Source: a virus (taxonomy: Duplodnaviria > Heunggongvirae > Uroviricota > Caudoviricetes). Taken from it: 33,032 bases of DNA. The notes beneath the pieces are model-generated. The model worked only from the letters and a program-made list of their open reading frames with translations, did not search any database and had not been told where the DNA came from. Location of the stretch: IMG/VR virus record IMGVR_UViG_3300032018_000003. One strand, given 5' to 3'. The position numbers and the translations under genes are program-made. The first letter of the stretch is position 1, and each line of letters begins with the position of its first letter. This document shows, in pieces, positions 5,015 to 27,054 of this stretch.

Positions 5015-5389
5015 ATGTTTAAATTAGTGGGCAAATATTTAACATCATCTACTATAGCAACACTTATCGATTGGTTAATATTTTATATATTATCTACATG
5101 TACTGGATTATTATATATAATAAGTTATATAATATCTTTTGGTACAGGGTTTATTGTTAAATTTATACTAAACAAAGAATTTACATTTGTAATAAAAGAA
5201 TATAATAAGAAAATGTTTCTTTCGTATTGTTTAGTTAATGTGGGTACATTTATATTGGGCGCAATATTAATGTGGTTGTTTGTTGATGTTATACACCTTG
5301 TTAGTTTTACTGGTAGAGTATGGACAACTATAATAGTATTTATATATAATTTTCTAATGGATAAAAAATTTGTGTTTGTGAAAAAATGA
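5015..5389 (+). CDS. gtrA: GtrA-family lipid-phosphate-sugar flippase
   Basis: 124 aa, four TM segments, typical termini KYLTSSTIATLIDW...FILNKEFTF...NFLMDKKFVF. Confidence 0.85.
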   Translation: MFKLVGKYLTSSTIATLIDWLIFYILSTCTGLLYIISYIISFGTGFIVKFILNKEFTFVIKEYNKKMFLSYCLVNVGTFILGAILMWLFVDVIHLVSFTGRVWTTIIVFIYNFLMDKKFVFVKK

Positions 5390-5760
5390 AAAAACTTGAT
5401 AAACTAGGAAGAACATACAAAGGACATTCAAGAGCAATGTTTGAACGATATTGTGTTGTATGTAATACTTTTTTTAGAACAAGAGTGCAACGAAAACTAA
5501 CTTGTACAGTCCCGTGTTCAAATAAAAGAAAAGTAAATTCTATAAAAAGAAAACGTACAGAATATTATAAAACGTTTGTTGAACTTCGCAATAGAGGAAG
5601 ACTTTTATTAGACACTATGTTAAAACAAAAATATAAACATTTATACGAGGTAGTAAAAGAACGTCCTTCAGGAAGAATGTATATTAATAATAAAACATTA
5701 ACTGAATGGAAAGAACATTTAGATATGTTTGAAAAGGAGTTGCAAAATGAAAATTCCTGA
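5386..5760 (+). CDS. Basic zinc-finger protein
   Basis: CVVC...CTVPC motif; ATGA overlap with gtrA. Confidence 0.55.
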   Translation: MKKLDKLGRTYKGHSRAMFERYCVVCNTFFRTRVQRKLTCTVPCSNKRKVNSIKRKRTEYYKTFVELRNRGRLLLDTMLKQKYKHLYEVVKERPSGRMYINNKTLTEWKEHLDMFEKELQNENS

Positions 5761-6460
5761 ACTATCTATAGTGATCCCGTGTTATAATGAAGAAAAGAGA
5801 TTGGATAAAAACTTTTATGTTATTTATAATTACTGTCTAAAAAATATTAAAAAGTTTGAAATAATTCTTGTAGATGATGGTTCTACGGACAGCACACCAT
5901 TTATGATGATGAAACATCATGATAAAAATATAAAATTTATTACATATACAAAAAATATGGGTAAAGGATATGCCGTTAAACAAGGTATAATGAGAGCACA
6001 ATATAAACACGTTTTGTTTATGGATATAGATAGTGCAACACCAATAAATGAAATAGAAAAACTATATCCATATGTAAATAAATATAATGTTGTTATTGGT
6101 AGTAGAGAAATTGAAGATAGTAATATTATTGTACAACAACCTATCAGTAGAAAAGTTATGGGTTGGGTATTTAGAAAAATGTATTATATTATATTAGGAT
6201 TAAAAATTAGAGATACTCAAAATGGATTTAAGTTGTTTGAAACATCGACTGCGCAATTCTTATTTAGCCAATTAACTACTAACAGATGGGCATTTGATAT
6301 AGAGATATTATACTTATATATACATAGAGTTTTTCCTAGTTGTAAAATAAAAGAAGTTGGTATTACATGGATTAATGATAAAGACTCACGTGTCAATCCA
6401 ATAAAAGACGGAATACAAATGTTTATTGCATTATTACAGATAAGGTTTAGACATGGATAA
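5747..6460 (+). CDS. GT2 dolichyl/polyprenyl-phosphate glucosyltransferase (ALG5/AglJ-like)
   Basis: SIVIPCYNEEKRL, VDDGSTD, NMGKGYAV, DxD (DID), DTQNGFKLF, WAFDIEIL motifs. ATG at 5747 follows AAGGAG. Confidence 0.85.
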   Translation: MKIPELSIVIPCYNEEKRLDKNFYVIYNYCLKNIKKFEIILVDDGSTDSTPFMMMKHHDKNIKFITYTKNMGKGYAVKQGIMRAQYKHVLFMDIDSATPINEIEKLYPYVNKYNVVIGSREIEDSNIIVQQPISRKVMGWVFRKMYYIILGLKIRDTQNGFKLFETSTAQFLFSQLTTNRWAFDIEILYLYIHRVFPSCKIKEVGITWINDKDSRVNPIKDGIQMFIALLQIRFRHG

Positions 6461-7631
6461 TAAATTTATTATTACTTGTGTTATTATATTTATAGTTAGT
6501 ATAGTAGGATTCTTATGTATAAAAAATCAAGATCTTTATAGTGATGAATTACCGCATAGTACACAAATAAAATGGTTTGACGAAGAAAATTATTCGATAG
6601 TACCATATTTAACTGTTATTCCCGGGTATCATTTTGTAATTTCTGCATTCACTATACATTTTAAACAAGATACCATACAATTAATACGGTTTACATCGTT
6701 AATTTTATTAATTGGATTGTTGATACCATTATTTTTTAGGTTATCGTTAGACAATAGTATTAAAACATTACAATTATATTTTTTTCCTACATTATTTATA
6801 TTCTTTTTTCTTATTTATACAGACATTTTTAGTGCAATATTAGTTTTATTATCGTATTATTATTTTAAACAGAACAAATATTACATAAGTGGGTTGTTTG
6901 TTTTATTATCGGTATTAGTAAGACAAAACAATGTCGTGTGGTGTGGTTTTTATATATTACTTTTAATTTTAGATTTCAAATTAAAAAATAATTTTGAAAA
7001 TAATTTAAAAATATTTAAAAAAACAATAGTTTATATTATAGGAATTTTGTTTACTGGAGTGTTTATGTTACTAAACCACGGTGGTGTAATAGGAGATAAA
7101 GGAAGTCACCCATTAGCAATACATACAGCAAACATATGGTTTTTATTATTTATGATACCAATATTATTCTTACCGATTTTTTTAGCACGTTTACCAAAAA
7201 TTATAGAATTATTAAAGAACTGGAAGATATGGTTTTTATGTATAGGAATTATGATTTTAGGACTTGGAACTTTTATTAACGATCATATATATAATCAAAA
7301 CACGGTGTTCCTAAAAAATAAATTCTTGGTTTGGGGTACTAGTAATGCTATGAATGAGATAGCTTTTTTTATTATTGTTATTGGTGGATTATTGTTCTTA
7401 ATGACATATAAATGGAATAAAGAACAGATTGTGTTTGGAATATGTACGATACCATATTTGTTAATGAGTTGGATGGTGGATGTAAGATATTATACAATAT
7501 TTTTTATATTTTTTATACTATGGCGACAACAAGAAGATAAACCTATTTTTGAATGGTATCAGTTAATATATTGTATTTTGTTTGCGTTAATAATGTTTTG
7601 GGGAGTATTACAATGGAAGATATTTTGGTAA
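6453..7631 (+). CDS. ALG10/DIE2-like GT-C alpha-glucosyltransferase
   Basis: Multi-TM protein with YSDELPH, TVIPG, FPTLFIFFFLIYTD, RQNNVVW, GGVIGDKGSH, VRYY and terminal FW, colinear with remembered ALG10 motifs (YMDEIFH, TTLPG, FPTLYFFNFLYYTE, RQTNIIW, GGIVIGDRSSH, FRYF, FMW). Confidence 0.8.
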   Translation: MDNKFIITCVIIFIVSIVGFLCIKNQDLYSDELPHSTQIKWFDEENYSIVPYLTVIPGYHFVISAFTIHFKQDTIQLIRFTSLILLIGLLIPLFFRLSLDNSIKTLQLYFFPTLFIFFFLIYTDIFSAILVLLSYYYFKQNKYYISGLFVLLSVLVRQNNVVWCGFYILLLILDFKLKNNFENNLKIFKKTIVYIIGILFTGVFMLLNHGGVIGDKGSHPLAIHTANIWFLLFMIPILFLPIFLARLPKIIELLKNWKIWFLCIGIMILGLGTFINDHIYNQNTVFLKNKFLVWGTSNAMNEIAFFIIVIGGLLFLMTYKWNKEQIVFGICTIPYLLMSWMVDVRYYTIFFIFFILWRQQEDKPIFEWYQLIYCILFALIMFWGVLQWKIFW

Positions 7632-20978: not shown

Positions 20979-21159
20979 AGACAATTATTTAAATACTGTG
21001 TATGATAAAGAATTCGGTACTATGTATTTCTGTACTGCTAAAATACCGTGTACACATCAAGCACATCTTGGTTTATCAATAAGTGTTTGTGATATAAAAC
21101 AAATGTCAGATTCATTAATAAAATATTTTCATTATGAGAGGTCTAAAAAAAATGGTTGA
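20959..21159 (+). CDS. Small Cys/His-containing hypothetical protein
   Basis: 66 aa, overlaps both neighbours. Confidence 0.5.
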   Translation: MLETICKDNYLNTVYDKEFGTMYFCTAKIPCTHQAHLGLSISVCDIKQMSDSLIKYFHYERSKKNG

Positions 21160-21733
21160 TATTAAACAAGCCGCGGAATGGATGTTGGAAGGACATCTTA
21201 TTAAACGAAAAAGTAAAGAGTTTCTTATTGTATACGATTATAATAAACCTGAAGAAGAGTTTGGACTTAACATTGATGATTTACGTGCTAATGATTGGGA
21301 AATTAATAAACGTAAATTCGCGCCGGTTAAGGCGGACTATATTATGTACATCTTTGCTAATAAAAAACATAAAATGTCTCCTGGTAAATTAAGTAAAATG
21401 GTTGCTGATGGCGCCTGTTTCGGCGCACTTAATACAGATAAAGAAACAGTTAGACAATGGATCCAACAAGGTTTTAATAAAACTATATTTGAAATCATGG
21501 ATGAATATCAATTAAAAGAAATTCAGCATAACCTTATCAAATTAGGTGTTGAGAGTTATATTATTCTTGATAAAGATGCTGATGTTAATACTGCGCTCGG
21601 TGTACAAATTGTTGATAAAAATAAATATAAAGAATTTTTTGATAAATATAAATTATATAAAAAAGTATCTTTATTTGATAAAATTAAAGAATTTTTTAGT
21701 AAATTTAAAAAGAAAAAGGACGAATACAAATGA
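21152..21733 (+). CDS. Fusion of a DUF2829(Tad2)-like N-terminal domain and a peptidyl-tRNA hydrolase 2 (PTH2)-like domain
   Basis: N-terminus IKQAAEWMLEGHLIKRK...IDDLRANDWEI; C-terminus KMSPGK...W...GFNKTIF...ILD...TALGV...YKLY. ATG at 21152 after GAGGT. Confidence 0.6.
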   Translation: MVDIKQAAEWMLEGHLIKRKSKEFLIVYDYNKPEEEFGLNIDDLRANDWEINKRKFAPVKADYIMYIFANKKHKMSPGKLSKMVADGACFGALNTDKETVRQWIQQGFNKTIFEIMDEYQLKEIQHNLIKLGVESYIILDKDADVNTALGVQIVDKNKYKEFFDKYKLYKKVSLFDKIKEFFSKFKKKKDEYK

Positions 21734-22469: not shown

Positions 22470-22488
22470 GAAACAATATATATATAAA
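22470..22488 (+). promoter_or_regulatory. Promoter of tRNA operon 1
   Basis: GAAACAATATATATATAAA. Confidence 0.65.
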
Positions 22489-22541
22489 TAGGTAATACAT
22501 ACTATATTATACTTATATTTATTTGGTGAGAAAAACAAATG

Positions 22542-22649
22542 ATAACAACAACATTCAGTAATTGTATAATGTACTTACTGACAAGTCTCACTACATCCAA
22601 TAATTCAACATTATTGGCGATGTGTGATTAATCACACTGTTGTTGTTAT
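22542..22649 (+). ncRNA. Putative structured RNA, four-way-junction cloverleaf
   Basis: Perfect 12-bp closing stem 22542-53/22638-49 enclosing three hairpins: TCAGTAA/TTACTGA, CCAATAAT/ATTATTGG and the GTGTGATTAATCACAC palindrome. Confidence 0.5.
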
Positions 22650-22714
22650 AAAATTTCTACAATTTTTATATAACCCTTATTAAAATTTTCTAACAATAAC
22701 GGTTATAACCATAT

Positions 22715-22788
22715 ACAGCGATACAAAATTGGATTTTTGGAGTGGCTCATAACCATTATAAGAGAAGGTTCGATTCCTTCTCGCTGTA
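22715..22788 (+). tRNA. tRNA-Met(CAT)
   Basis: ACAGCGA/TCGCTGT acceptor; AGTGG-CTCATAA-CCATT; TTCGATT T-loop. Confidence 0.85.
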
Positions 22789-22802
22789 TTTTTTATTATT
22801 AT

Positions 22803-22873
22803 GGCTATGTAATATAAAGGTATTATATCTGACTGTTAATCAGAAAATATGGGTTCGATTCCTATCGTAGCCG
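22803..22873 (+). tRNA. tRNA-Asn(GTT)
   Basis: GGCTATG/CGTAGCC; TCTGA-CTGTTAA-TCAGA; G73. Confidence 0.85.
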
Positions 22874-22876
22874 TAT

Positions 22877-22963
22877 GACAGTATGCCCCGAATCTGGTAA
22901 GGGAATCGTTTGCTAAACGATGTCAGACCTGACAATTGGGTTCAAATCCCAATACTGTCGCCA
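22877..22963 (+). tRNA. tRNA-Ser(GCT)
   Basis: GACAGTA/TACTGTC; long variable arm; G73; encoded CCA. Confidence 0.9.
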
Positions 22964-22964
22964 T

Positions 22965-23048
22965 GCGCGGGTACTAAATTGGAAAATAGAATGGGTTTAG
23001 ACCCCATGTGATAAGTTCACTGTAAGAGTTCGAATCTCTTTCCGTGCA
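22965..23048 (+). tRNA. tRNA-Leu(TAG)
   Basis: GCGCGGG/TCCGTGC; ATGGG-TTTAGAC-CCCAT; long variable arm; A73. Confidence 0.9.
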
Positions 23049-23056
23049 TTAGTTAT

Positions 23057-23183
23057 ACCGGATTGGCAGAGTAGTCAAATGCGGCAGACTTAAGATACGA
23101 TATATCAAACTGCAATCAAGTTTGACTATATGAGTAATCTGTTACCCGTAGGGGTTGCGAGGGTGCAAATCCCTTATCCGGTA
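23057..23183 (+). tRNA. tRNA-Leu(TAA) with 42-nt intron at 37/38 (23095..23136)
   Basis: ACCGGAT/ATCCGGT; GCAGA-CTTAAG|intron|A-TCTGT; canonical BHB motif; long variable arm. Confidence 0.85.
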
Positions 23184-23192
23184 TTTTTATTT

Positions 23193-23277
23193 GGTAAGGT
23201 ACGGAAATGGTAAACCGCTTCCGCTTGAGACGGAATGTTGTGAATAACATACGCAGGTTCGAGCCCTGCCCTTATCG
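23193..23277 (+). tRNA. tRNA-Ser(TGA)
   Basis: GGTAAGG/CCTTATC; TTCCG-CTTGAGA-CGGAA; long variable arm; G73. Confidence 0.9.
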
Positions 23278-23286
23278 TTTAGAAAT

Positions 23287-23362
23287 GTGTCTATAAGCCA
23301 ATTGGTAGACTACCTCGTTTGCACCGAGGACGCTTCGGGTTCGAATCCCGATAGATACACCA
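23287..23362 (+). tRNA. tRNA-Ala(TGC)
   Basis: GTGTCTA/TAGATAC with the G3:U70 identity pair; encoded CCA. Confidence 0.9.
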
Positions 23363-23364
23363 TT

Positions 23365-23437
23365 GTCATCGTAGCTCCAAAGGTAGAGCGGTCGGCCTGT
23401 ACCCGACAGGATAGGGGTTCAAACCCCCTCGATGGCT
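23365..23437 (+). tRNA. tRNA-Thr(TGT)
   Basis: GTCATCG/CGATGGC; GTCGG-CCTGTAC-CCGAC; U73. Confidence 0.9.
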
Positions 23438-23441
23438 TTTC

Positions 23442-23513
23442 GGCTCGTTGGACAAATAGTAAGTCGTTTGGTTGCAACCCAAAAGAATATGCGTGCGAAT
23501 CGCATACGAGTCT
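23442..23513 (+). tRNA. tRNA-Cys(GCA)
   Basis: GGCTCGT/ACGAGTC; TTTGG-TTGCAAC-CCAAA; U73; D-loop AG, T-loop TGCGAAT. Confidence 0.85.
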
Positions 23514-23522
23514 TAATAGAAT

Positions 23523-23537
23523 GACAATATATATAAA
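23523..23537 (+). promoter_or_regulatory. Promoter of tRNA operon 2
   Basis: GACAATATATATAAA, a variant of the recurring motif. Confidence 0.55.
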
Positions 23538-23573
23538 TAAGTTGTTTCATATAGGTATATTATGTTAAACTTA

Positions 23574-23673
23574 AATCATAAACAACAATATTGGAAGGAA
23601 CGAGGCAACTCACAGATAATTAGAGTGATTCCCGGGTTCTTTATAGATAACCAATAGTTACGTTGTTATGATT
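23574..23673 (+). ncRNA. Putative structured RNA, long irregular stem with GNRA hairpin
   Basis: AATCAT.AACAAC/GTTGTTATGATT closing stem, TTGG/CCAA, AAGGAAC/GTTCTTT and GAG-GCAA-CTC. Confidence 0.4.
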
Positions 23674-23772
23674 CAAATTCTATAAAAAAATATTAAATAA
23701 ACAATACCCCACAACATTTGGGTCATAATATATGTAATAATTGGAATTCTATATTGTTTATGTTTAAAAGAT

Positions 23773-23844
23773 GTACTGTTCGTTCAACAGTTAGGATTAT
23801 GGGTTTACACCTCATAGATACCCGTGCAATTCGGGTACAGTATA
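23773..23844 (+). tRNA. tRNA-Val(TAC)
   Basis: GTACTGT/ACAGTAT; ATGGG-TTTACAC-CTCAT; D-loop AG, T-loop TGCAATT. Confidence 0.85.
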
Positions 23845-23853
23845 TTAGAATAT

Positions 23854-23928
23854 GCGGTTGTAGTGTAGTCGAGCCAATCACGTCGTGCCTTCGCCACGAA
23901 GACTTGGGTGCGAATCCCAACTACCGTA
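23854..23928 (+). tRNA. tRNA-Glu(TTC)
   Basis: GCGGTTG/CTACCGT; TCGTG-CCTTCGC-CACGA; D-loop AG, T-loop TGCGAAT. Confidence 0.85.
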
Positions 23929-23933
23929 TTTAT

Positions 23934-24006
23934 GTGGTATTAGTGTAATCTGGTATCACCAGGCGTTTGGAACGCTTTAATGCCGGTTCGAATCCGGTGT
24001 ACCACA
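23934..24006 (+). tRNA. tRNA-Pro(TGG)
   Basis: GTGGTAT/GTACCAC; AGGCG-TTTGGAA-CGCTT. Confidence 0.9.
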
Positions 24007-24008
24007 TT

Positions 24009-24081
24009 GGCTGAGTAGTATAATTAGATAGTACACAAGATTGTCGATCTTGAGAAACGGGAGCATAACCCGTCTCAGTCG
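24009..24081 (+). tRNA. tRNA-Asp(GTC)
   Basis: GGCTGAG/CTCAGTC; CAAGA-TTGTCGA-TCTTG; G73; atypical T-loop AGCATAA. Confidence 0.85.
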
Positions 24082-24086
24082 TATAT

Positions 24087-24158
24087 ACAGGGTTAGCTTA
24101 ACGGTAAAGCAAAGGTCTTATATACCTTCGAGTACGCGTTCAAATCGCGTATCCTGTA
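24087..24158 (+). tRNA. tRNA-Ile(TAT)
   Basis: ACAGGGT/ATCCTGT; AAGGT-CTTATAT-ACCTT; anticodon at 24119..24121. Confidence 0.85.
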
Positions 24159-24163
24159 TTCGT

Positions 24164-24235
24164 ATCGCTGTAGCTTAATGGTAAAGCATTTGCCTGATAT
24201 GTAAACGAGTGTGCGTTCGAATCGCACCGGCGATA
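24164..24235 (+). tRNA. tRNA-Ile(GAT)
   Basis: ATCGCTG/CGGCGAT; TTTGC-CTGATAT-GTAAA. Confidence 0.9.
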
Positions 24236-24239
24236 TCAT

Positions 24240-24314
24240 AGGCGTGTAGTATAACTTGGATTAGTACACGAGTTTTCTAAACTCGTTATATGGGTTCAAA
24301 TCCCGTCACGCTTG
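24240..24314 (+). tRNA. tRNA-Arg(TCT)
   Basis: AGGCGTG/CACGCTT; CGAGT-TTTCTAA-ACTCG. Confidence 0.9.
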
Positions 24315-24315
24315 C

Positions 24316-24390
24316 GGACGTGTAGTGTAACTTGGATAACATATTCGGTTTCGACCCGAAAGAATTTGCGTTCAAATCGCAACACGTTCA
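24316..24390 (+). tRNA. tRNA-Arg(TCG)
   Basis: GGACGTG/CACGTTC; TTCGG-TTTCGAC-CCGAA. Confidence 0.9.
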
Positions 24391-24393
24391 TAC

Positions 24394-24468
24394 GGATCGG
24401 TAGCTCCAATAAGTTAGAGCAAGGGACTTTTAATCCCGAGGTTGTGGATGCAAATTCCACCCGGTTCA
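24394..24468 (+). tRNA. tRNA-Lys(TTT)
   Basis: GGATCGG/CCGGTTC; GGGA-CTTTTAA-TCCC; D-loop AG, T-loop TGCAAAT. Confidence 0.85.
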
Positions 24469-24478
24469 TTTAGTAAAT

Positions 24479-24550
24479 AGGGTATGAGACTGACGGAATG
24501 GTCGCGAGTCTTTGGAACTCGAGGAACCGGTTCAATTCCGGTATACCCCA
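24479..24550 (+). tRNA. tRNA-Gln(TTG)
   Basis: AGGGTAT/ATACCCC (1:72 mismatch); CGAGT-CTTTGGA-ACTCG. Confidence 0.85.
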
Positions 24551-24553
24551 TAT

Positions 24554-24628
24554 GGTAGAGGTCGTTCAACGATAGGATAAGGGTTTGTGACACCTTTGAA
24601 GCGGGTTTAACTCCCGTCCTTTACCCCA
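24554..24628 (+). tRNA. tRNA-His(GTG)
   Basis: Encoded G-1:C73; GTAGAGG/CCTTTAC; encoded CCA; D-loop GA, T-loop TTTAACT. Confidence 0.85.
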
Positions 24629-24633
24629 TATAT

Positions 24634-24706
24634 GTCAATGTAGCTTAACCTGGGAGAGCAACTGACTGAAGCTCAGAAGACGAGGATTCAAATTCCTCCT
24701 TTGACA
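24634..24706 (+). tRNA. tRNA-Phe(GAA)
   Basis: GTCAATG/CTTTGAC; CTGA-CTGAAGC-TCAG. Confidence 0.85.
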
Positions 24707-24729
24707 TTTTTATATTTAGAGGATAACCA

Positions 24730-25275
24730 ATGGAAAAAGAAAAAAATAATTACGAAACATATCGTAACCAATTAAGTAAAGAAGAATATTTTAAACGATT
24801 TAAAACTGAAGACGCAGAAAAAATCGGTGACGAATTAAAAGAAGACTTGTATCAGAAATACATTGTGAAATGTATTGTCTTCAATAGAGATAATTTCAAA
24901 TGTCAAAACATTAATTGTAAAGCTCCCGATAGTCCATTAACAATGCATCATGTTAAATGGCAAAAGAACGGTGGTAAAGATAGTCAACGAAATTGTGTTA
25001 TATTATGTATGAGTTGTCATAAAAATTATCACCGAGGAAAATTTATAATAACTTTTAACAATAATGAAAAATTACCACAACATATCAAAGGACATACTTT
25101 CAGATTAGAAAAAGCAGATGAAGTTGACTGGAAACAAATTAAAAACGATATGAAAAAAATTAGAAAACAATTGAAATATTCAACAAATGTTTCAAAAGGA
25201 ATCTGGTATAAAATTGAATGGAGTAAAGTAGAACATTTAATGAAAATATTAGAAGAATGGTTAAAAGAATATTAA
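24730..25275 (+). CDS. HNH endonuclease inside the tRNA cluster
   Basis: FNRDNFKCQNINC...LTMHHVK...NCVILCMSCHKNYH. Confidence 0.85.
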   Translation: MEKEKNNYETYRNQLSKEEYFKRFKTEDAEKIGDELKEDLYQKYIVKCIVFNRDNFKCQNINCKAPDSPLTMHHVKWQKNGGKDSQRNCVILCMSCHKNYHRGKFIITFNNNEKLPQHIKGHTFRLEKADEVDWKQIKNDMKKIRKQLKYSTNVSKGIWYKIEWSKVEHLMKILEEWLKEY

Positions 25276-25287
25276 TTTTTTATTTTT

Positions 25288-25359
25288 GCACTGTTGGTGA
25301 TAACGGTATCATGCGGGACTTCCACTCCTGATTTGCGGGTTCAAATCCCGTGCGGTGCA
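25288..25359 (+). tRNA. tRNA-Gly(TCC)
   Basis: GCACTGT/GCGGTGC; CGGGA-CTTCCAC-TCCTG; A73 (archaeal/eukaryal type). Confidence 0.9.
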
Positions 25360-25366
25360 TTTTTAT

Positions 25367-25442
25367 CTATTGGTAGAACAACAGCTTAGTTCAGTGGGTT
25401 GTAACCCCATTAATCCGTGTGCAACTCACGGCCAATAGACCA
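25367..25442 (+). tRNA. tRNA-Tyr(GTA), archaeal type
   Basis: C1:G72 (CTATTGG/CCAATAG), short variable loop, encoded CCA; D-loop AG, T-loop TGCAACT. Confidence 0.9.
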
Positions 25443-25445
25443 TTT

Positions 25446-25517
25446 GGAGTAGTAGTGTAACGGGAACATGTCAGATTCCAGACCTGAAGACTGAGAGTTC
25501 GATTCTCTCCTATTCCA
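25446..25517 (+). tRNA. tRNA-Trp(CCA)
   Basis: GGAGTAG/CTATTCC; TCAG(A)-TTCCAGA-(C)CTGA. Confidence 0.85.
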
Positions 25518-25534
25518 TTTTTTTAATTTTCTTT
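25518..25534 (+). terminator. Oligo-T terminator at the strand-convergence point
   Basis: TTTTTTTAATTTTCTTT immediately after tRNA-Trp. Confidence 0.5.
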
Positions 25535-25952: not shown

Positions 25953-26357
25953 TTATTTCACTCTTTTGAAACAATCCACACCGATACTTAATTTATCTTT
26001 TCCATATTTACCAACATGAATAATATTAAACGCATCATATTCTTTATCTAATTTTTGTTTCTTAATTTCTTTTAATACACTTTCTCCCATTTTATTATGT
26101 TTAATAAACTCATTTAGTGTTTGAAAGTTTTTTAATTTAGTAATATCTTTAGGTTTATCTATTTCAATGTCATAAGTATTAACCAAAGTATATCTATCTT
26201 TTGAAAATATTATCCAATTATTATATATTTCTGTAGGATTAATAGGTATATCATAACATACTTTTGGGTTCTTTTTTATAATAGGTTTTAATCTATCACG
26301 TTTCTTTAACATATTATCTACCTTCTTTAACACATTATCTTCCTTCTTGTTTACCAT
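25953..26357 (-). CDS. Hypothetical protein
   Basis: 134 aa, K-rich, overlaps the phosphoesterase stop. Confidence 0.55.
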   Translation of the reverse strand: MVNKKEDNVLKKVDNMLKKRDRLKPIIKKNPKVCYDIPINPTEIYNNWIIFSKDRYTLVNTYDIEIDKPKDITKLKNFQTLNEFIKHNKMGESVLKEIKKQKLDKEYDAFNIIHVGKYGKDKLSIGVDCFKRVK

Positions 26358-27054
26358 ATAGTTCCTCCACTGTATCGCTCTGCCATATTTCTTTAGTATC
26401 TATATCTTTAAATGTAAGTCTTCCTTTCCAACCCGCTCCTGTGTCCATGCAGCATAAATTAACTATATTAATAGGTACATCTCCAACATGGGTGTGACCT
26501 ATATACACTTCGTTGTATGTTGGTAATTTTATATTTGTACCACGTAACTCGTTATGTGTACGTAATATTCTTGCAGTATCTATTATACTCCTATCCCACA
26601 TTAAATAACCACTATCGTTTAATTCTATTGGTTTGGTTGTGTCATAACCACCATGAACAAATAATCTGTTTTGGTTATCAACATAATAGTATTCTGCACG
26701 TTTTAATAGGGTTTTGTGTGCTTCAGGTACGTTTTTATTATTGTCACCATAACTTTGTATGGTTGCTTTACCACCCTGCTCGTACCATGACCTATAACTA
26801 AACTCGTCCTCATGTTTAAAAATATTACCTTTATACATCCACTGTATGCACCAAAAATCATGGTTCGCCATTACATAAATTAGATGTTTAATCTTTAATA
26901 ATTCATCAAAACATTCTTTTGTTTGTGGTAAACCATCACATGTGTCTCCTAAACAAATTAAAGTATCTTCATCGTAGTTAAAACTACTTCGTTTTAAGCA
27001 TTGTTTTAGTGCTTTGAAGTTTCCATGTACATCGGCTGTTACTATCGTTCGCAT
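26335..27054 (-). CDS. Calcineurin-like metallophosphoesterase (PPP/ApaH/lambda NinI-like)
   Basis: DVHG, LGDTCDG, ANHD, FVHGG, IGHT, DTGAG motifs. Confidence 0.9.
   Translation of the reverse strand: MRTIVTADVHGNFKALKQCLKRSSFNYDEDTLICLGDTCDGLPQTKECFDELLKIKHLIYVMANHDFWCIQWMYKGNIFKHEDEFSYRSWYEQGGKATIQSYGDNNKNVPEAHKTLLKRAEYYYVDNQNRLFVHGGYDTTKPIELNDSGYLMWDRSIIDTARILRTHNELRGTNIKLPTYNEVYIGHTHVGDVPINIVNLCCMDTGAGWKGRLTFKDIDTKEIWQSDTVEELYGKQEGR

What the first reader, a model, noticed from the sequence alone, without database searches (positions are those of the whole stretch)
22715..25517. 24 tRNAs forming exactly the minimal non-redundant set for the whole standard genetic code
Seen in sequence: 24 cloverleafs covering all 20 amino acids with no duplicated anticodon. 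All eight family boxes have only a U34 tRNA (Leu TAG, Val TAC, Ser TGA, Pro TGG, Thr TGT, Ala TGC, Arg TCG, Gly TCC). Every NNY box has one G34 tRNA and every NNR box one U34 tRNA. Ile has GAT plus TAT, and C34 occurs only in Met and Trp. Established: archaeal hosts usually carry many more anticodons (G, U and C wobble bases), while one-per-box superwobble sets are typical of mitochondria and mollicutes. Inference: the element can replace the host tRNA pool entirely, for example after host shutoff or tRNA-cleaving defence, or in a tRNA-poor reduced host. A weaker reading is tuning to A/U-ending codons.
Basis: partly seen in the sequence, partly recalled or inferred. Interest (0 to 1): 0.9.

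Follow-up and report, generated by a model that had tools for sequence, protein, structure and literature searches.

The report
Complete one-per-box viral tRNA set
An uncultured virus of archaea from sediment carries 24 real tRNA genes, exactly one for each codon box or half-box. Two related viral elements keep the same set, which suggests selection for the set as a whole, but whether it can replace the host's tRNAs is untested.

Summary
Window 22714-25518 (+) holds 24 tRNA genes: 23 called by ARAGORN, plus Leu(UAA), which has a 42-nt archaeal-type intron. There are 24 different anticodons. All eight family boxes have only a U34 tRNA, NNY half-boxes have G34, NNR half-boxes have U34, Ile has GAU plus UAU, and C34 occurs only in Met and Trp. 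No other tRNA lies in the 33-kb window.

The genes are archaeal in type:
- Tyr is class I with C1:G72.
- Gly and Trp have A73.
- Only His has an encoded G-1.
- The intron sits in a bulge-helix-bulge motif at 37/38.
- A PTH2 gene lies upstream.

New here:
- One relative (L006; PTH2 55% identical) has the same 24 anticodons in the same order, with 199 two-sided compensatory stem changes.
- A more distant 129-kb element (L009) has 23 of the 24 in another order and no extra isoacceptor.

The set therefore appears to be under selection as a set.

Caveats:
- There is only one Met tRNA, so a separate initiator or elongator is missing.
- 14.9% of codons would need four-way U34 wobble, which is untested in archaea.
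- The host, expression, and the other 64 kb of the genome could not be checked.

Phage T5 shows a similar but incomplete pattern, and HGTV-1 carries a redundant set. This scan has noted comparable sets on other DNA. I class it as a new variant of a known kind.

The parts
21134..21733 (+). PTH2-type peptidyl-tRNA hydrolase gene with an N-terminal extension, 1 kb upstream of the array
   Evidence: Pfam PF01981 scores 42.2 bits against a cut-off of 23. Homologues at 55-64% identity lie beside the syntenic arrays.
22470..22713 (+). Non-coding leader ahead of the first tRNA block
   Evidence: No ORF of 70 aa or more. A similarly organised leader, closed by AACAAC...GTTGTT, precedes the array in L001 (by eye).
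22714..22789 (+). tRNA-Met(CAU), the only CAU tRNA; A1:U72 and A73
   Evidence: ARAGORN. Identity table. Not reported by Rfam RF00005 at E<=1. The L006 orthologue scores 47.4 bits.
22802..22874 (+). tRNA-Asn(GUU)
   Evidence: ARAGORN; Rfam 66.4 bits.
22877..22963 (+). tRNA-Ser(GCU), class II, G73, CCA encoded
   Evidence: ARAGORN. The Rfam general model is weak. The L006 orthologue scores 44.2 bits.
22964..23049 (+). tRNA-Leu(UAG), class II
   Evidence: ARAGORN; Rfam 47.8 bits.
23057..23183 (+). tRNA-Leu(UAA) with a 42-nt intron (23095-23136) at position 37/38
   Evidence: Rfam 40.6 bits. ARAGORN calls Leu(taa) after splicing. A strict bulge-helix-bulge motif appears only in the 37/38 register.
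23192..23278 (+). tRNA-Ser(UGA), class II
   Evidence: ARAGORN; Rfam 47.7 bits.
23287..23362 (+). tRNA-Ala(UGC), G3:U70, CCA encoded
   Evidence: ARAGORN; Rfam 57.3 bits; identity table.
23365..23437 (+). tRNA-Thr(UGU), U73, with an unusual C33
   Evidence: ARAGORN; Rfam 53.6 bits; identity table.
23442..23513 (+). tRNA-Cys(GCA), U73
   Evidence: ARAGORN; Rfam 55.6 bits.
23514..23771 (+). 258-nt spacer between tRNA blocks 1 and 2
   Evidence: No tRNA or Rfam match here. An equivalent spacer of about 250 nt lies at the same place in L001/L006.
23772..23845 (+). tRNA-Val(UAC)
   Evidence: ARAGORN; Rfam 44.7 bits.
23853..23929 (+). tRNA-Glu(UUC)
   Evidence: ARAGORN; Rfam 45.7 bits.
23933..24007 (+). 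tRNA-Pro(UGG)
   Evidence: ARAGORN; Rfam 52.6 bits.
24008..24082 (+). tRNA-Asp(GUC)
   Evidence: ARAGORN; Rfam 49.5 bits.
24086..24159 (+). tRNA-Ile(UAU), reads AUA
   Evidence: ARAGORN; Rfam 66.1 bits. ATA is 54% of Ile codons.
24163..24237 (+). tRNA-Ile(GAU)
   Evidence: ARAGORN; Rfam 68.1 bits.
24240..24315 (+). tRNA-Arg(UCU)
   Evidence: ARAGORN; Rfam 56.4 bits.
24316..24390 (+). tRNA-Arg(UCG)
   Evidence: ARAGORN; Rfam 57.6 bits.
24394..24468 (+). tRNA-Lys(UUU)
   Evidence: ARAGORN; Rfam 51.4 bits.
24478..24551 (+). tRNA-Gln(UUG), with a conserved A1.C72 mismatch
   Evidence: ARAGORN; Rfam 43.1 bits; identity table.
24554..24628 (+). tRNA-His(GUG) with encoded G-1 (24554), C73 and CCA
   Evidence: ARAGORN; Rfam 44 bits. 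It is the only tRNA with G at position -1, both here and in L006.
24633..24707 (+). tRNA-Phe(GAA)
   Evidence: ARAGORN; Rfam 59.6 bits.
24730..25275 (+). HNH endonuclease gene inserted between tRNA blocks 2 and 3
   Evidence: Pfam PF01844, E 4.2e-8. L001/L006 carry three HNH genes at other points of the same array.
25287..25360 (+). tRNA-Gly(UCC), A73
   Evidence: ARAGORN; Rfam 48.6 bits; identity table.
25367..25442 (+). tRNA-Tyr(GUA), class I, C1:G72, A73, CCA encoded
   Evidence: ARAGORN; Rfam 51 bits; identity table.
25445..25518 (+). tRNA-Trp(CCA), G1:C72, A73
   Evidence: ARAGORN; Rfam 60.2 bits; identity table.

Best explanation
The block is a virus-borne decoding kit for an archaeal host: 24 functional tRNA genes, one per codon box or half-box.

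Shown here:
- The genes are well-formed tRNAs that follow archaeal identity rules.
- Relatives keep the same anticodon set.

Inferred:
- The tRNAs are transcribed in two or three blocks.
- Host enzymes mature them (RNase P, tRNase Z, splicing endonuclease plus ligase for Leu-UAA, CCA-adding enzyme), and host synthetases charge them.
- Together they can read every sense codon of the virus's A/U-rich genes. U34 tRNAs take NNA and NNG, and possibly NNY in family boxes. G34 tRNAs take NNY. UAU takes AUA.
- Viral protein synthesis therefore does not depend on how much of each elongator tRNA the host supplies, or has left during infection.

The neighbouring PTH2 gene, and in relatives a CCA-adding enzyme and Ro60, point to a tRNA-maintenance module. 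The selective trigger is not resolved. It could be host tRNA loss through shut-off or a tRNA-cutting defence, or simple shortage of supply.
For: - 24 genes and 24 anticodons.
- Identity elements are correct and conserved between the window and L006: G-1 only on His, G3:U70 on Ala, C1:G72 with A73 and a short variable arm on Tyr, A73 on Gly and Trp, U73 on Cys and Thr, G73 on Ser, Asn and Asp.
- A strict bulge-helix-bulge motif at 37/38 in five of six introns tested.
- L006 has the same 24 anticodons in the same order, although PTH2 is only 55% identical. Of the stem pairs, 262 are unchanged, 26 changed on one side and 199 changed on both sides.
- L009, whose GT-C protein is 46% identical, has 23 of the same 24 anticodons in another order and on both strands. 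No extra isoacceptor appears in 50 kb of that contig.
- All 9138 sense codons of the window's ORFs are readable by the set.
- No G34 or C34 family-box tRNA exists, although NNU is about as frequent as NNA.
- PTH2 lies next to the array in all three elements. L009 has a CCA-adding enzyme, and L001 has Ro60 and a radical SAM gene.
Against: - There is only one CAU tRNA in each element, so the set is one short of a self-sufficient system unless that tRNA both initiates and elongates.
- 14.9% of codons need U34:U or U34:C reading. Four-way wobble is known from mitochondria, plastids and Mollicutes (PMC8879553) but not from archaea. Host G34 tRNAs may simply read these codons.
- The L001/L005 variant lacks Leu-UAA and has a fused Leu-UAG/Ser-UGA. 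If this is real and not an assembly collapse, completeness is dispensable.
- Arg-UCU was not found in L009.
- The other 64 kb of this genome could not be scanned.
- There are no expression data.
Confidence: 0.55

Rival explanations
1. Codon-usage top-up only. The virus adds tRNAs for its preferred A/U-ending codons to a host pool tuned differently. Covering all boxes is a by-product, and host tRNAs remain essential throughout.
For: - 81% of third positions are A or T.
- NNA is the top codon in most family boxes.
- ATA is 54% of Ile codons and is matched by tRNA-Ile(UAU).
- This is the standard explanation for viral tRNAs (PMC13532342, PMC10264068).
- The L001/L005 variant seems to tolerate loss of Leu and Ser tRNAs.
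Against: - It predicts G34 tRNAs for abundant family-box NNU codons (GGT 45%, GTT 40%, ACT 39%). None is present in any of the three elements.
- It does not predict single-codon Met and Trp tRNAs, or G34 tRNAs that any host must already have.
- It does not explain why exactly the same 24 anticodons persist over deep divergence.
Confidence: 0.3
2. A selfish or hitch-hiking mobile tRNA cassette. The array spreads between viruses with its HNH homing endonucleases and is kept by linkage, not by benefit to translation.
For: HNH genes sit inside the arrays at different positions in the window and in L001/L006. This is a habit known from T4- and T5-type phage tRNA regions (own knowledge).
Against: 199 two-sided compensatory stem changes and conserved identity elements show selection on each tRNA's function. 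The L009 array has no HNH gene among the called genes yet keeps the set.
Confidence: 0.05
3. Not viral. The block is the tRNA cluster of a very small cellular genome or a plasmid that was mis-assembled or mis-classified.
For: No capsid, portal or terminase gene was recognised in this 33-kb window.
Against: - The window holds a collagen-repeat protein that matches phage tail-fibre families, a tyrosine integrase, an HNH gene, a DNA methylase and dozens of small orphan ORFs. It has no housekeeping genes and no rRNA.
- Earlier unchecked notes describe the 97-kb contig as a virus with its own split PolB.
- Relatives are 42- to 129-kb contigs of the same style.
Confidence: 0.05

Closest known systems
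tRNA cluster of Halogranum tailed virus 1 (HGTV-1, Halomagnusviridae), the only published archaeal virus with a near-complete tRNA set
   Same: It is an archaeal virus with a dense tRNA cluster that covers (nearly) all amino acids. One tRNA has an intron, and tRNA-metabolism genes lie nearby (PMC8651126, PMC13532342).
   Different: HGTV-1's set is redundant. ARAGORN gives 37 calls with 35 anticodons: 16 G34, 12 U34, 8 C34 and 1 A34, with up to three isoacceptors per family box. The published recount gives 34 genes and no His (PMC13532342). The set here is strictly one per box. There is no sequence similarity to any record in the phage collection beyond a 50-nt tRNA-Lys match. The GC content is 30%, and the source is a sediment, not a saltern.
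tRNA region of coliphage T5 and relatives (Tequintavirus)
   Same: About 24 tRNA genes lie in one region interspersed with small ORFs and endonuclease genes. Family boxes are mostly served by a single U34 tRNA: Leu-UAG, Val-UAC, Pro-UGG, Thr-UGU and Ala-UGC.
   Different: The tRNAs are of bacterial type. By ARAGORN's default calls the set is not clean. It has two CAU tRNAs and extra Ser and Gln isoacceptors, and no Gly, Trp or Arg-CGN tRNA was called. In bacteria a modified U34 (cmo5U) is known to widen reading (PMC8879553). No equivalent is known for archaea.
Minimal superwobble tRNA sets of mitochondria, plastids and Mollicutes
   Same: One U34 tRNA per family box, G34 for NNY and U34 for NNR. 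tRNA-Ile(UAU) occurs in Mycoplasma mobile, a nanoarchaeon and a korarchaeon (PMC3575796, PMC3895270, PMC8879553).
   Different: Those sets are the only tRNAs available in their compartment or cell, and U34 is known to be unmodified. Here a host pool coexists and the modification state is unknown. Mollicutes also keep a separate initiator.
tRNA gene clusters of large and huge bacteriophages (15-37 clustered genes; up to 67 tRNAs)
   Same: The cluster is dense (8.6 tRNAs per kb here). Eight of the surveyed viral clusters carry all 20 isotypes (PMC6409571).
   Different: Those are bacterial viruses with variable, often redundant sets. Only one archaeal virus was found in that survey (PMC6409571).

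Membership tests
tRNA genes (Rfam RF00005) | Cloverleaf that scores above the curated cut-off of 29 bits | tested here: met
   22 of 24 score 40.6-68.1 bits. Met and Ser(GCU) fall below E<=1 in the window but are ARAGORN cloverleafs. Their L006 orthologues score 47.4 and 44.2 bits.
tRNA genes (Rfam RF00005) | Stems kept by compensatory change in orthologues | tested here: met
   Window against L006: 199 two-sided changes, 26 one-sided changes and 262 unchanged pairs. Only positions paired by ARAGORN were counted, so broken pairs cannot appear.
Archaeal-type tRNAs | tRNA-Tyr of class I (short variable arm) with C1:G72 and A73 | tested here: met
   Seen in the window and in L006. Bacterial tRNA-Tyr is class II (own knowledge; PMC8879553).
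Archaeal-type tRNAs | Introns in a bulge-helix-bulge motif (3-nt bulges flanking a 4-bp helix), cut at 37/38 | tested here: met
   A strict motif appears in only one register for the window's Leu-UAA and for L006 Leu-UAA, Arg-UCU, Gln and Gly. L006 Trp is relaxed, with 3 of 4 helix pairs.
Archaeal-type tRNAs | A73 on Gly and Trp, G1:C72 on Trp, and encoded G-1 on His | tested here: met
   An encoded G-1 argues against a eukaryotic host (own knowledge).
Viral tRNA gene cluster (at least 15 tRNAs at 2 or more per kb, PMC6409571) | Number and density of genes | tested here: met
   24 genes in 2.8 kb.
Viral tRNA gene cluster (at least 15 tRNAs at 2 or more per kb, PMC6409571) | Lies on a virus genome | tested here: inconclusive
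   Tail-fibre-like protein, integrase, HNH and methylase genes are present, but no capsid or terminase gene was recognised in the window. The viral nature of the 97-kb contig rests partly on earlier unchecked notes.
Superwobble minimal decoding system | A single U34 tRNA gene for every family box | tested here: met
   Eight of eight boxes in the window and in L006. The same eight U34 anticodons occur in L009.
Superwobble minimal decoding system | U34 unmodified and shown to read all four codons | not testable with these tools
   This needs tRNA mass spectrometry and translation assays.
Superwobble minimal decoding system | No other tRNAs available to the ribosome | not testable with these tools
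   The host is unknown. DPANN MAGs that hold homologues of a viral gene have 21-40 tRNA hits each.
Self-sufficient tRNA complement | Separate initiator and elongator tRNA-Met | tested here: not met
   There is one CAU tRNA in the window, in L006 and in L009. A1:U72 is present but is shared with Leu-UAA, both Ile tRNAs and Arg-UCU, so it is not diagnostic in the window.
HGTV-1-like tRNA set | Sequence relationship or the same anticodon repertoire | tested here: not met
   No blastn match to HGTV-1. HGTV-1 has 35 anticodons with G, U and C at position 34.

The most novel reading that the evidence does not exclude
The viral U34 tRNAs read all four codons of each family box inside an archaeal cell, which would be the first case of superwobble decoding in Archaea. 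The single Met tRNA serves both initiation and elongation. The virus could then keep translating after the host tRNA pool has been destroyed, either by the virus itself or by a tRNA-cutting defence. It would be a portable, minimal archaeal decoding system of 24 tRNAs.
Probability: 0.2. Interest if true: 0.8.

Novelty: new variant of a known kind. Interest (0 to 1): 0.6.

Why it matters
Published work knows one archaeal virus with a near-complete tRNA set (HGTV-1), and that set is redundant.

Here a lineage of uncultured, AT-rich archaeal viruses keeps exactly one tRNA per codon box over deep divergence. That makes two questions testable:
- Can archaeal ribosomes use four-way U34 wobble?
- How small can a working archaeal tRNA complement be?

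The set also gives a compact, natural 24-gene template for minimal-translation and cell-free work. It provides a marker (class I Tyr, bulge-helix-bulge introns, PTH2) for recognising archaeal viruses in metagenomes. If the set proves to be only a codon top-up, it remains an unusually tidy example of a known habit.

Tried and rejected
- **Source contig.** An exact 44-nt search of IMG/VR found nothing. Looking up the window's own 566-aa protein returned "not on record". No whole genome is held. The other 64 kb of the 97-kb genome could therefore not be scanned for tRNAs.
- **Relatives by single protein.** The 569-aa, PTH2 and metallophosphatase proteins gave nothing in IMG/VR.
- **PTH2 alignment.** It found nothing in IMG/VR or GTDB genomes, and only a 3.7-kb contig in JGI metagenomes.
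- **Conserved tRNA stretches as exact patterns.** These gave nothing in IMG/VR and two chance cyanobacterial hits in GTDB.
- **The 569-aa protein.** It has no homologue other than itself.
- **Host identification:**
  - GT-C homologues are spread over CPR bacteria, DPANN archaea and others at 25-38% identity.
  - A PTH2 search of 401 genomes of one DPANN phylum gave ordinary cellular PTH2 plus one better hit (G296, 35% identity). Its 32-kb neighbourhood has only two tRNAs and no array.
  - A 727-aa protein from the L010 contig found nothing in GTDB.
  - The host lineage stays open.
- **Expression.** No RNA holder was listed for the array. The only listed DNA run is a sediment metagenome that may be the source.
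- **ARAGORN at low thresholds.** It produced mostly false calls and was used only to type candidates already supported by Rfam.
- **ARAGORN's low-threshold call for 23056-23184.** It read this gene as Ile(tat), with the intron placed inside the anticodon. I rejected this because only the 37/38 register gives a bulge-helix-bulge motif.
- **A bacterial (CPR) host.** Rejected because of the archaeal identity elements.
- **Earlier notes by sequence.** A look-up with the L009 GT-C protein found nothing.

Full report
**1. What is there**

ARAGORN finds 23 tRNA genes, all on the + strand, between 22714 and 25518. Rfam's tRNA model adds a 127-nt match at 23057-23183 (40.6 bits). Read directly, this gene has an anticodon arm with the loop CUUAAG, followed by 42 extra bases (23095-23136) before the 3' strand of the stem. 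With those bases removed, ARAGORN calls it tRNA-Leu(taa).

- Eight family boxes each have only a U34 tRNA.
- Every NNY half-box has a G34 tRNA and every NNR half-box a U34 tRNA.
- Ile has GAU plus UAU.
- C34 occurs only in Met and Trp.

22 of the 24 pass Rfam's curated cut-off. Met and Ser(GCU) do not reach E<=1 with the general model, but both are clean cloverleafs, and their orthologues in a relative score 47.4 and 44.2 bits. A permissive Rfam scan of the whole window (E<=5) finds no other tRNA-like sequence.

The genes lie in three blocks of 9, 12 and 3. A 258-nt spacer and an HNH endonuclease gene separate the blocks.

**2. Domain of the host**

The tRNAs follow archaeal rules:
- Tyr has a short variable arm, C1:G72 and A73.
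- Gly and Trp have A73, and Trp has G1:C72.
- Thr and Cys have U73.
- Ala has G3:U70.
- His is the only tRNA preceded by a G at position -1, both in the window and in the relative L006.

For the Leu-UAA intron I tested seven splice registers. Only the canonical 37/38 register gives a 5-bp outer helix, a 3-nt bulge, a 4-bp helix and a second 3-nt bulge. The same holds for four of five introns in L006, and the fifth is relaxed. This motif is the substrate of the archaeal splicing endonuclease (established knowledge).

The gene 1 kb upstream is a PTH2-type peptidyl-tRNA hydrolase, the archaeal/eukaryal type (Pfam 42.2 bits).

A bacterial host, including CPR bacteria, is therefore very unlikely. 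The encoded G-1 argues against a eukaryote.

**3. Context**

- The window is the right-hand third of a 97,032-bp contig with about 30% GC.
- It comes from a sediment metagenome.
- It holds a collagen-repeat protein that matches phage tail-fibre families, a 1550-aa beta-helix protein, a tyrosine integrase, a DNA methylase, a GtrA/GT2/ALG10-like glycosylation cassette and many small orphan ORFs.
- Earlier notes of this scan, which I did not check, describe the rest of the contig as a virus with a split family-B polymerase. They report only a T-arm-like fragment, and no tRNA genes, in the other window.

**4. Relatives, the key new evidence**

*L001/L005 and L006.* The PTH2 protein has five homologues at 55-64% identity. 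One lies on a 42-kb JGI contig (L001/L005) and on a 14-kb contig from a second sample (L006).

L006 carries Met, Asn, Ser-GCU, Leu-UAG, Leu-UAA, Ser-UGA, Ala, Thr, Cys, Val, Glu, Pro, Asp, Ile-UAU, Ile-GAU, Arg-UCU, Arg-UCG, Lys, Gln, His, Phe, Gly, Tyr and Trp. That is the same 24 anticodons in the same order. Five of these genes have introns, against one in the window. Three HNH genes sit at other positions in the array.

The tRNA sequences have diverged a great deal. Over the stems, 262 pairs are unchanged, 26 differ on one side and 199 differ on both sides while still pairing. The count covers only positions that ARAGORN pairs, so it cannot show broken pairs.

*L009.* A more distant element is a 128,946-bp ENA scaffold (L009/L086/L092/L093) with 29% GC. 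Its ALG10-like protein is 46% identical to the window's. It has 19 ARAGORN tRNAs. Four more were found by Rfam and typed by hand: Met, Cys, Gly-UCC with an intron at 37/38, and Asn with a D-loop insert.

These are 23 of the same 24 anticodons, in a different order and on both strands. Arg-UCU was not found. No additional isoacceptor appears in the 50 kb of that contig that I could read. PTH2, a CCA-adding enzyme and a radical SAM gene lie nearby.

**5. Codons**

The window's ORFs use A or T at 81% of third positions, and ATA is 54% of Ile codons. With only the viral tRNAs, the 9138 sense codons would be read as follows:
- 51.2% by Watson-Crick pairing,
- 33.9% by G:U or U:G wobble,
- 14.9% (family-box NNU and NNC) only by four-way U34 wobble.

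Family-box NNU codons are about as common as NNA (GGT 45% against GGA 40%; GTT 40% against GTA 45%). A set built only to match codon demand should therefore include G34 family-box tRNAs, and none exists in any of the three elements. This is the main argument that the design is "one per box" and not merely "most-used codons".

**6. Limits of the autonomy reading**

- Each element has a single CAU tRNA. It has A1:U72 and A73, the archaeal initiator hallmark. In the window, however, A1:U72 also occurs in Leu-UAA, both Ile tRNAs and Arg-UCU, so it is not diagnostic there. The L009 copy has the three G:C pairs next to the loop that are typical of initiators (read by hand). Either way, one of the two Met functions is missing unless the tRNA is dual, as in animal mitochondria.
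- Four-way U34 reading is documented for mitochondria, plastids and some bacteria (PMC8879553), not for archaea.
- L001/L005 differs from L006 by a 231-nt deletion between identical T-arm sequences. The deletion fuses Leu-UAG to Ser-UGA and removes Leu-UAA. If this is a real variant, a complete set is not indispensable. It may equally be an assembly collapse.
- The host is unknown. GT-C homologues occur in CPR bacteria and DPANN archaea, and five such DPANN MAGs have 21-40 tRNA hits. This gives no support to a tRNA-poor host.

**7. Comparison with known systems**

- *HGTV-1.* It is the only published archaeal virus with a near-complete set (PMC8651126, PMC13532342). It gives 37 ARAGORN calls with 35 anticodons: 16 G34, 12 U34, 8 C34 and 1 A34. 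That is a redundant, cell-like repertoire.
- *Phage T5.* It gives 24 calls with 23 anticodons. Its family boxes are mostly U34-only, but it has two CAU tRNAs and extra Ser and Gln isoacceptors, and no Gly, Trp or Arg-CGN was called. T5 is the nearest functional analogue and shows that the U34-per-box habit is not unique to this virus.
- *Viral clusters in general.* A survey found clusters of 15-37 genes, eight of them with all 20 isotypes, and only one from an archaeal virus (PMC6409571).
- *tRNA-Ile(UAU).* It is known from a nanoarchaeon, a korarchaeon and a few bacteria (PMC3895270).
- *This scan.* It has earlier noted comparable complete tRNA sets on other virus-like archaeal DNA. I could not link those notes to the loci studied here.

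**8. Verdict**

The best explanation is a functional, non-redundant, archaeal-type decoding kit selected as a set. It buffers viral translation against the host's tRNA supply. Complete replacement of the host pool is possible on paper but unproven, and it falls short by one Met function. I rate this a new variant of a known kind (viral tRNA clusters), of moderate to high interest.

Noticed in passing
window 23057-25442 (e.g. Leu-UAA, Cys, Val, Glu, Lys, Tyr); L006 3363-7424: Many tRNAs have a T-loop that starts UGC instead of UUC (G55). Most of those in the window also have a D-loop with AG in place of the usual GG. This affects 7 of 24 tRNAs in the window and 16 of 24 in L006. It looks like a covarying, non-standard elbow that would lack pseudouridine 55.
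   Followed up: partly
window 23365-23437; L006 4024-4098: tRNA-Thr(UGU) has C at position 33 (loop CCUGUAC) in both elements. U33 is otherwise nearly universal.
   Followed up: no
window 24478-24551; L006 5873-5966: tRNA-Gln(UUG) has an A1.C72 mismatch at the top of the acceptor stem, conserved in both elements.
   Followed up: no
L001 10681-10770 against L006 3623-3939: L001/L005 lacks 231 nt present in L006. The break lies in a 15-nt sequence shared by the T-arms of Leu-UAG and Ser-UGA. It leaves a hybrid gene whose acceptor strands do not pair, and no Leu-UAA. This is either a natural deletion or an assembly collapse.
   Followed up: partly
L006 3363-3447: The Met(CAU) orthologue is 85 nt long and has an extra stem-loop in the variable region. 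This is unusual for tRNA-Met.
   Followed up: no
L009 5740-5833 (- strand): A tRNA-like gene appears to be circularly permuted. A T-arm and 3' acceptor strand come first, then a short linker, then a 5' acceptor strand, D-arm and anticodon-stem strand. The strands are complementary, and any permuted join gives an ARAGORN cloverleaf. The anticodon could not be determined.
   Followed up: partly
L009 5590-5668 (- strand): A 67-nt tRNA-like element with a 7-bp acceptor stem and a normal T-arm but an aberrant D-arm and anticodon arm. Rfam does not call it.
   Followed up: no
L001 15020-17580; L009 16983-19972: Relatives carry further RNA-handling genes near the arrays. L001/L006 have a Ro60 (TROVE) protein and a radical SAM enzyme. 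L009 has a CCA-adding enzyme, PTH2 and a radical SAM enzyme.
   Followed up: no
window 22500-22660 and 23553-23673; L001 10200-10340 and 11080-11200: Both tRNA blocks are preceded by long structured non-coding leaders closed by AACAAC...GTTGTT-type stems. Similarly organised leaders stand at the same places in L001 (by eye only).
   Followed up: no
window 5015-7631; L009 9306-11233; L085 8367-11218: A GtrA / GT2 / ALG10-like GT-C glycosylation cassette is shared by this virus and its relatives. Cellular homologues at 25-38% identity occur mainly in CPR bacteria and DPANN archaea.
   Followed up: partly
window 22714-25518: 21 of the 24 tRNAs are preceded by T at position -1, and many are followed by a T-run. 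The T-runs may act as archaeal terminators or processing signals.
   Followed up: no
window 26335-27054 (-); L001 9430-10083; L002 3986-4636: A calcineurin-like metallophosphoesterase gene stays close to PTH2 and the array in the relatives. A role in RNA-end repair is conceivable but was not tested.
   Followed up: no
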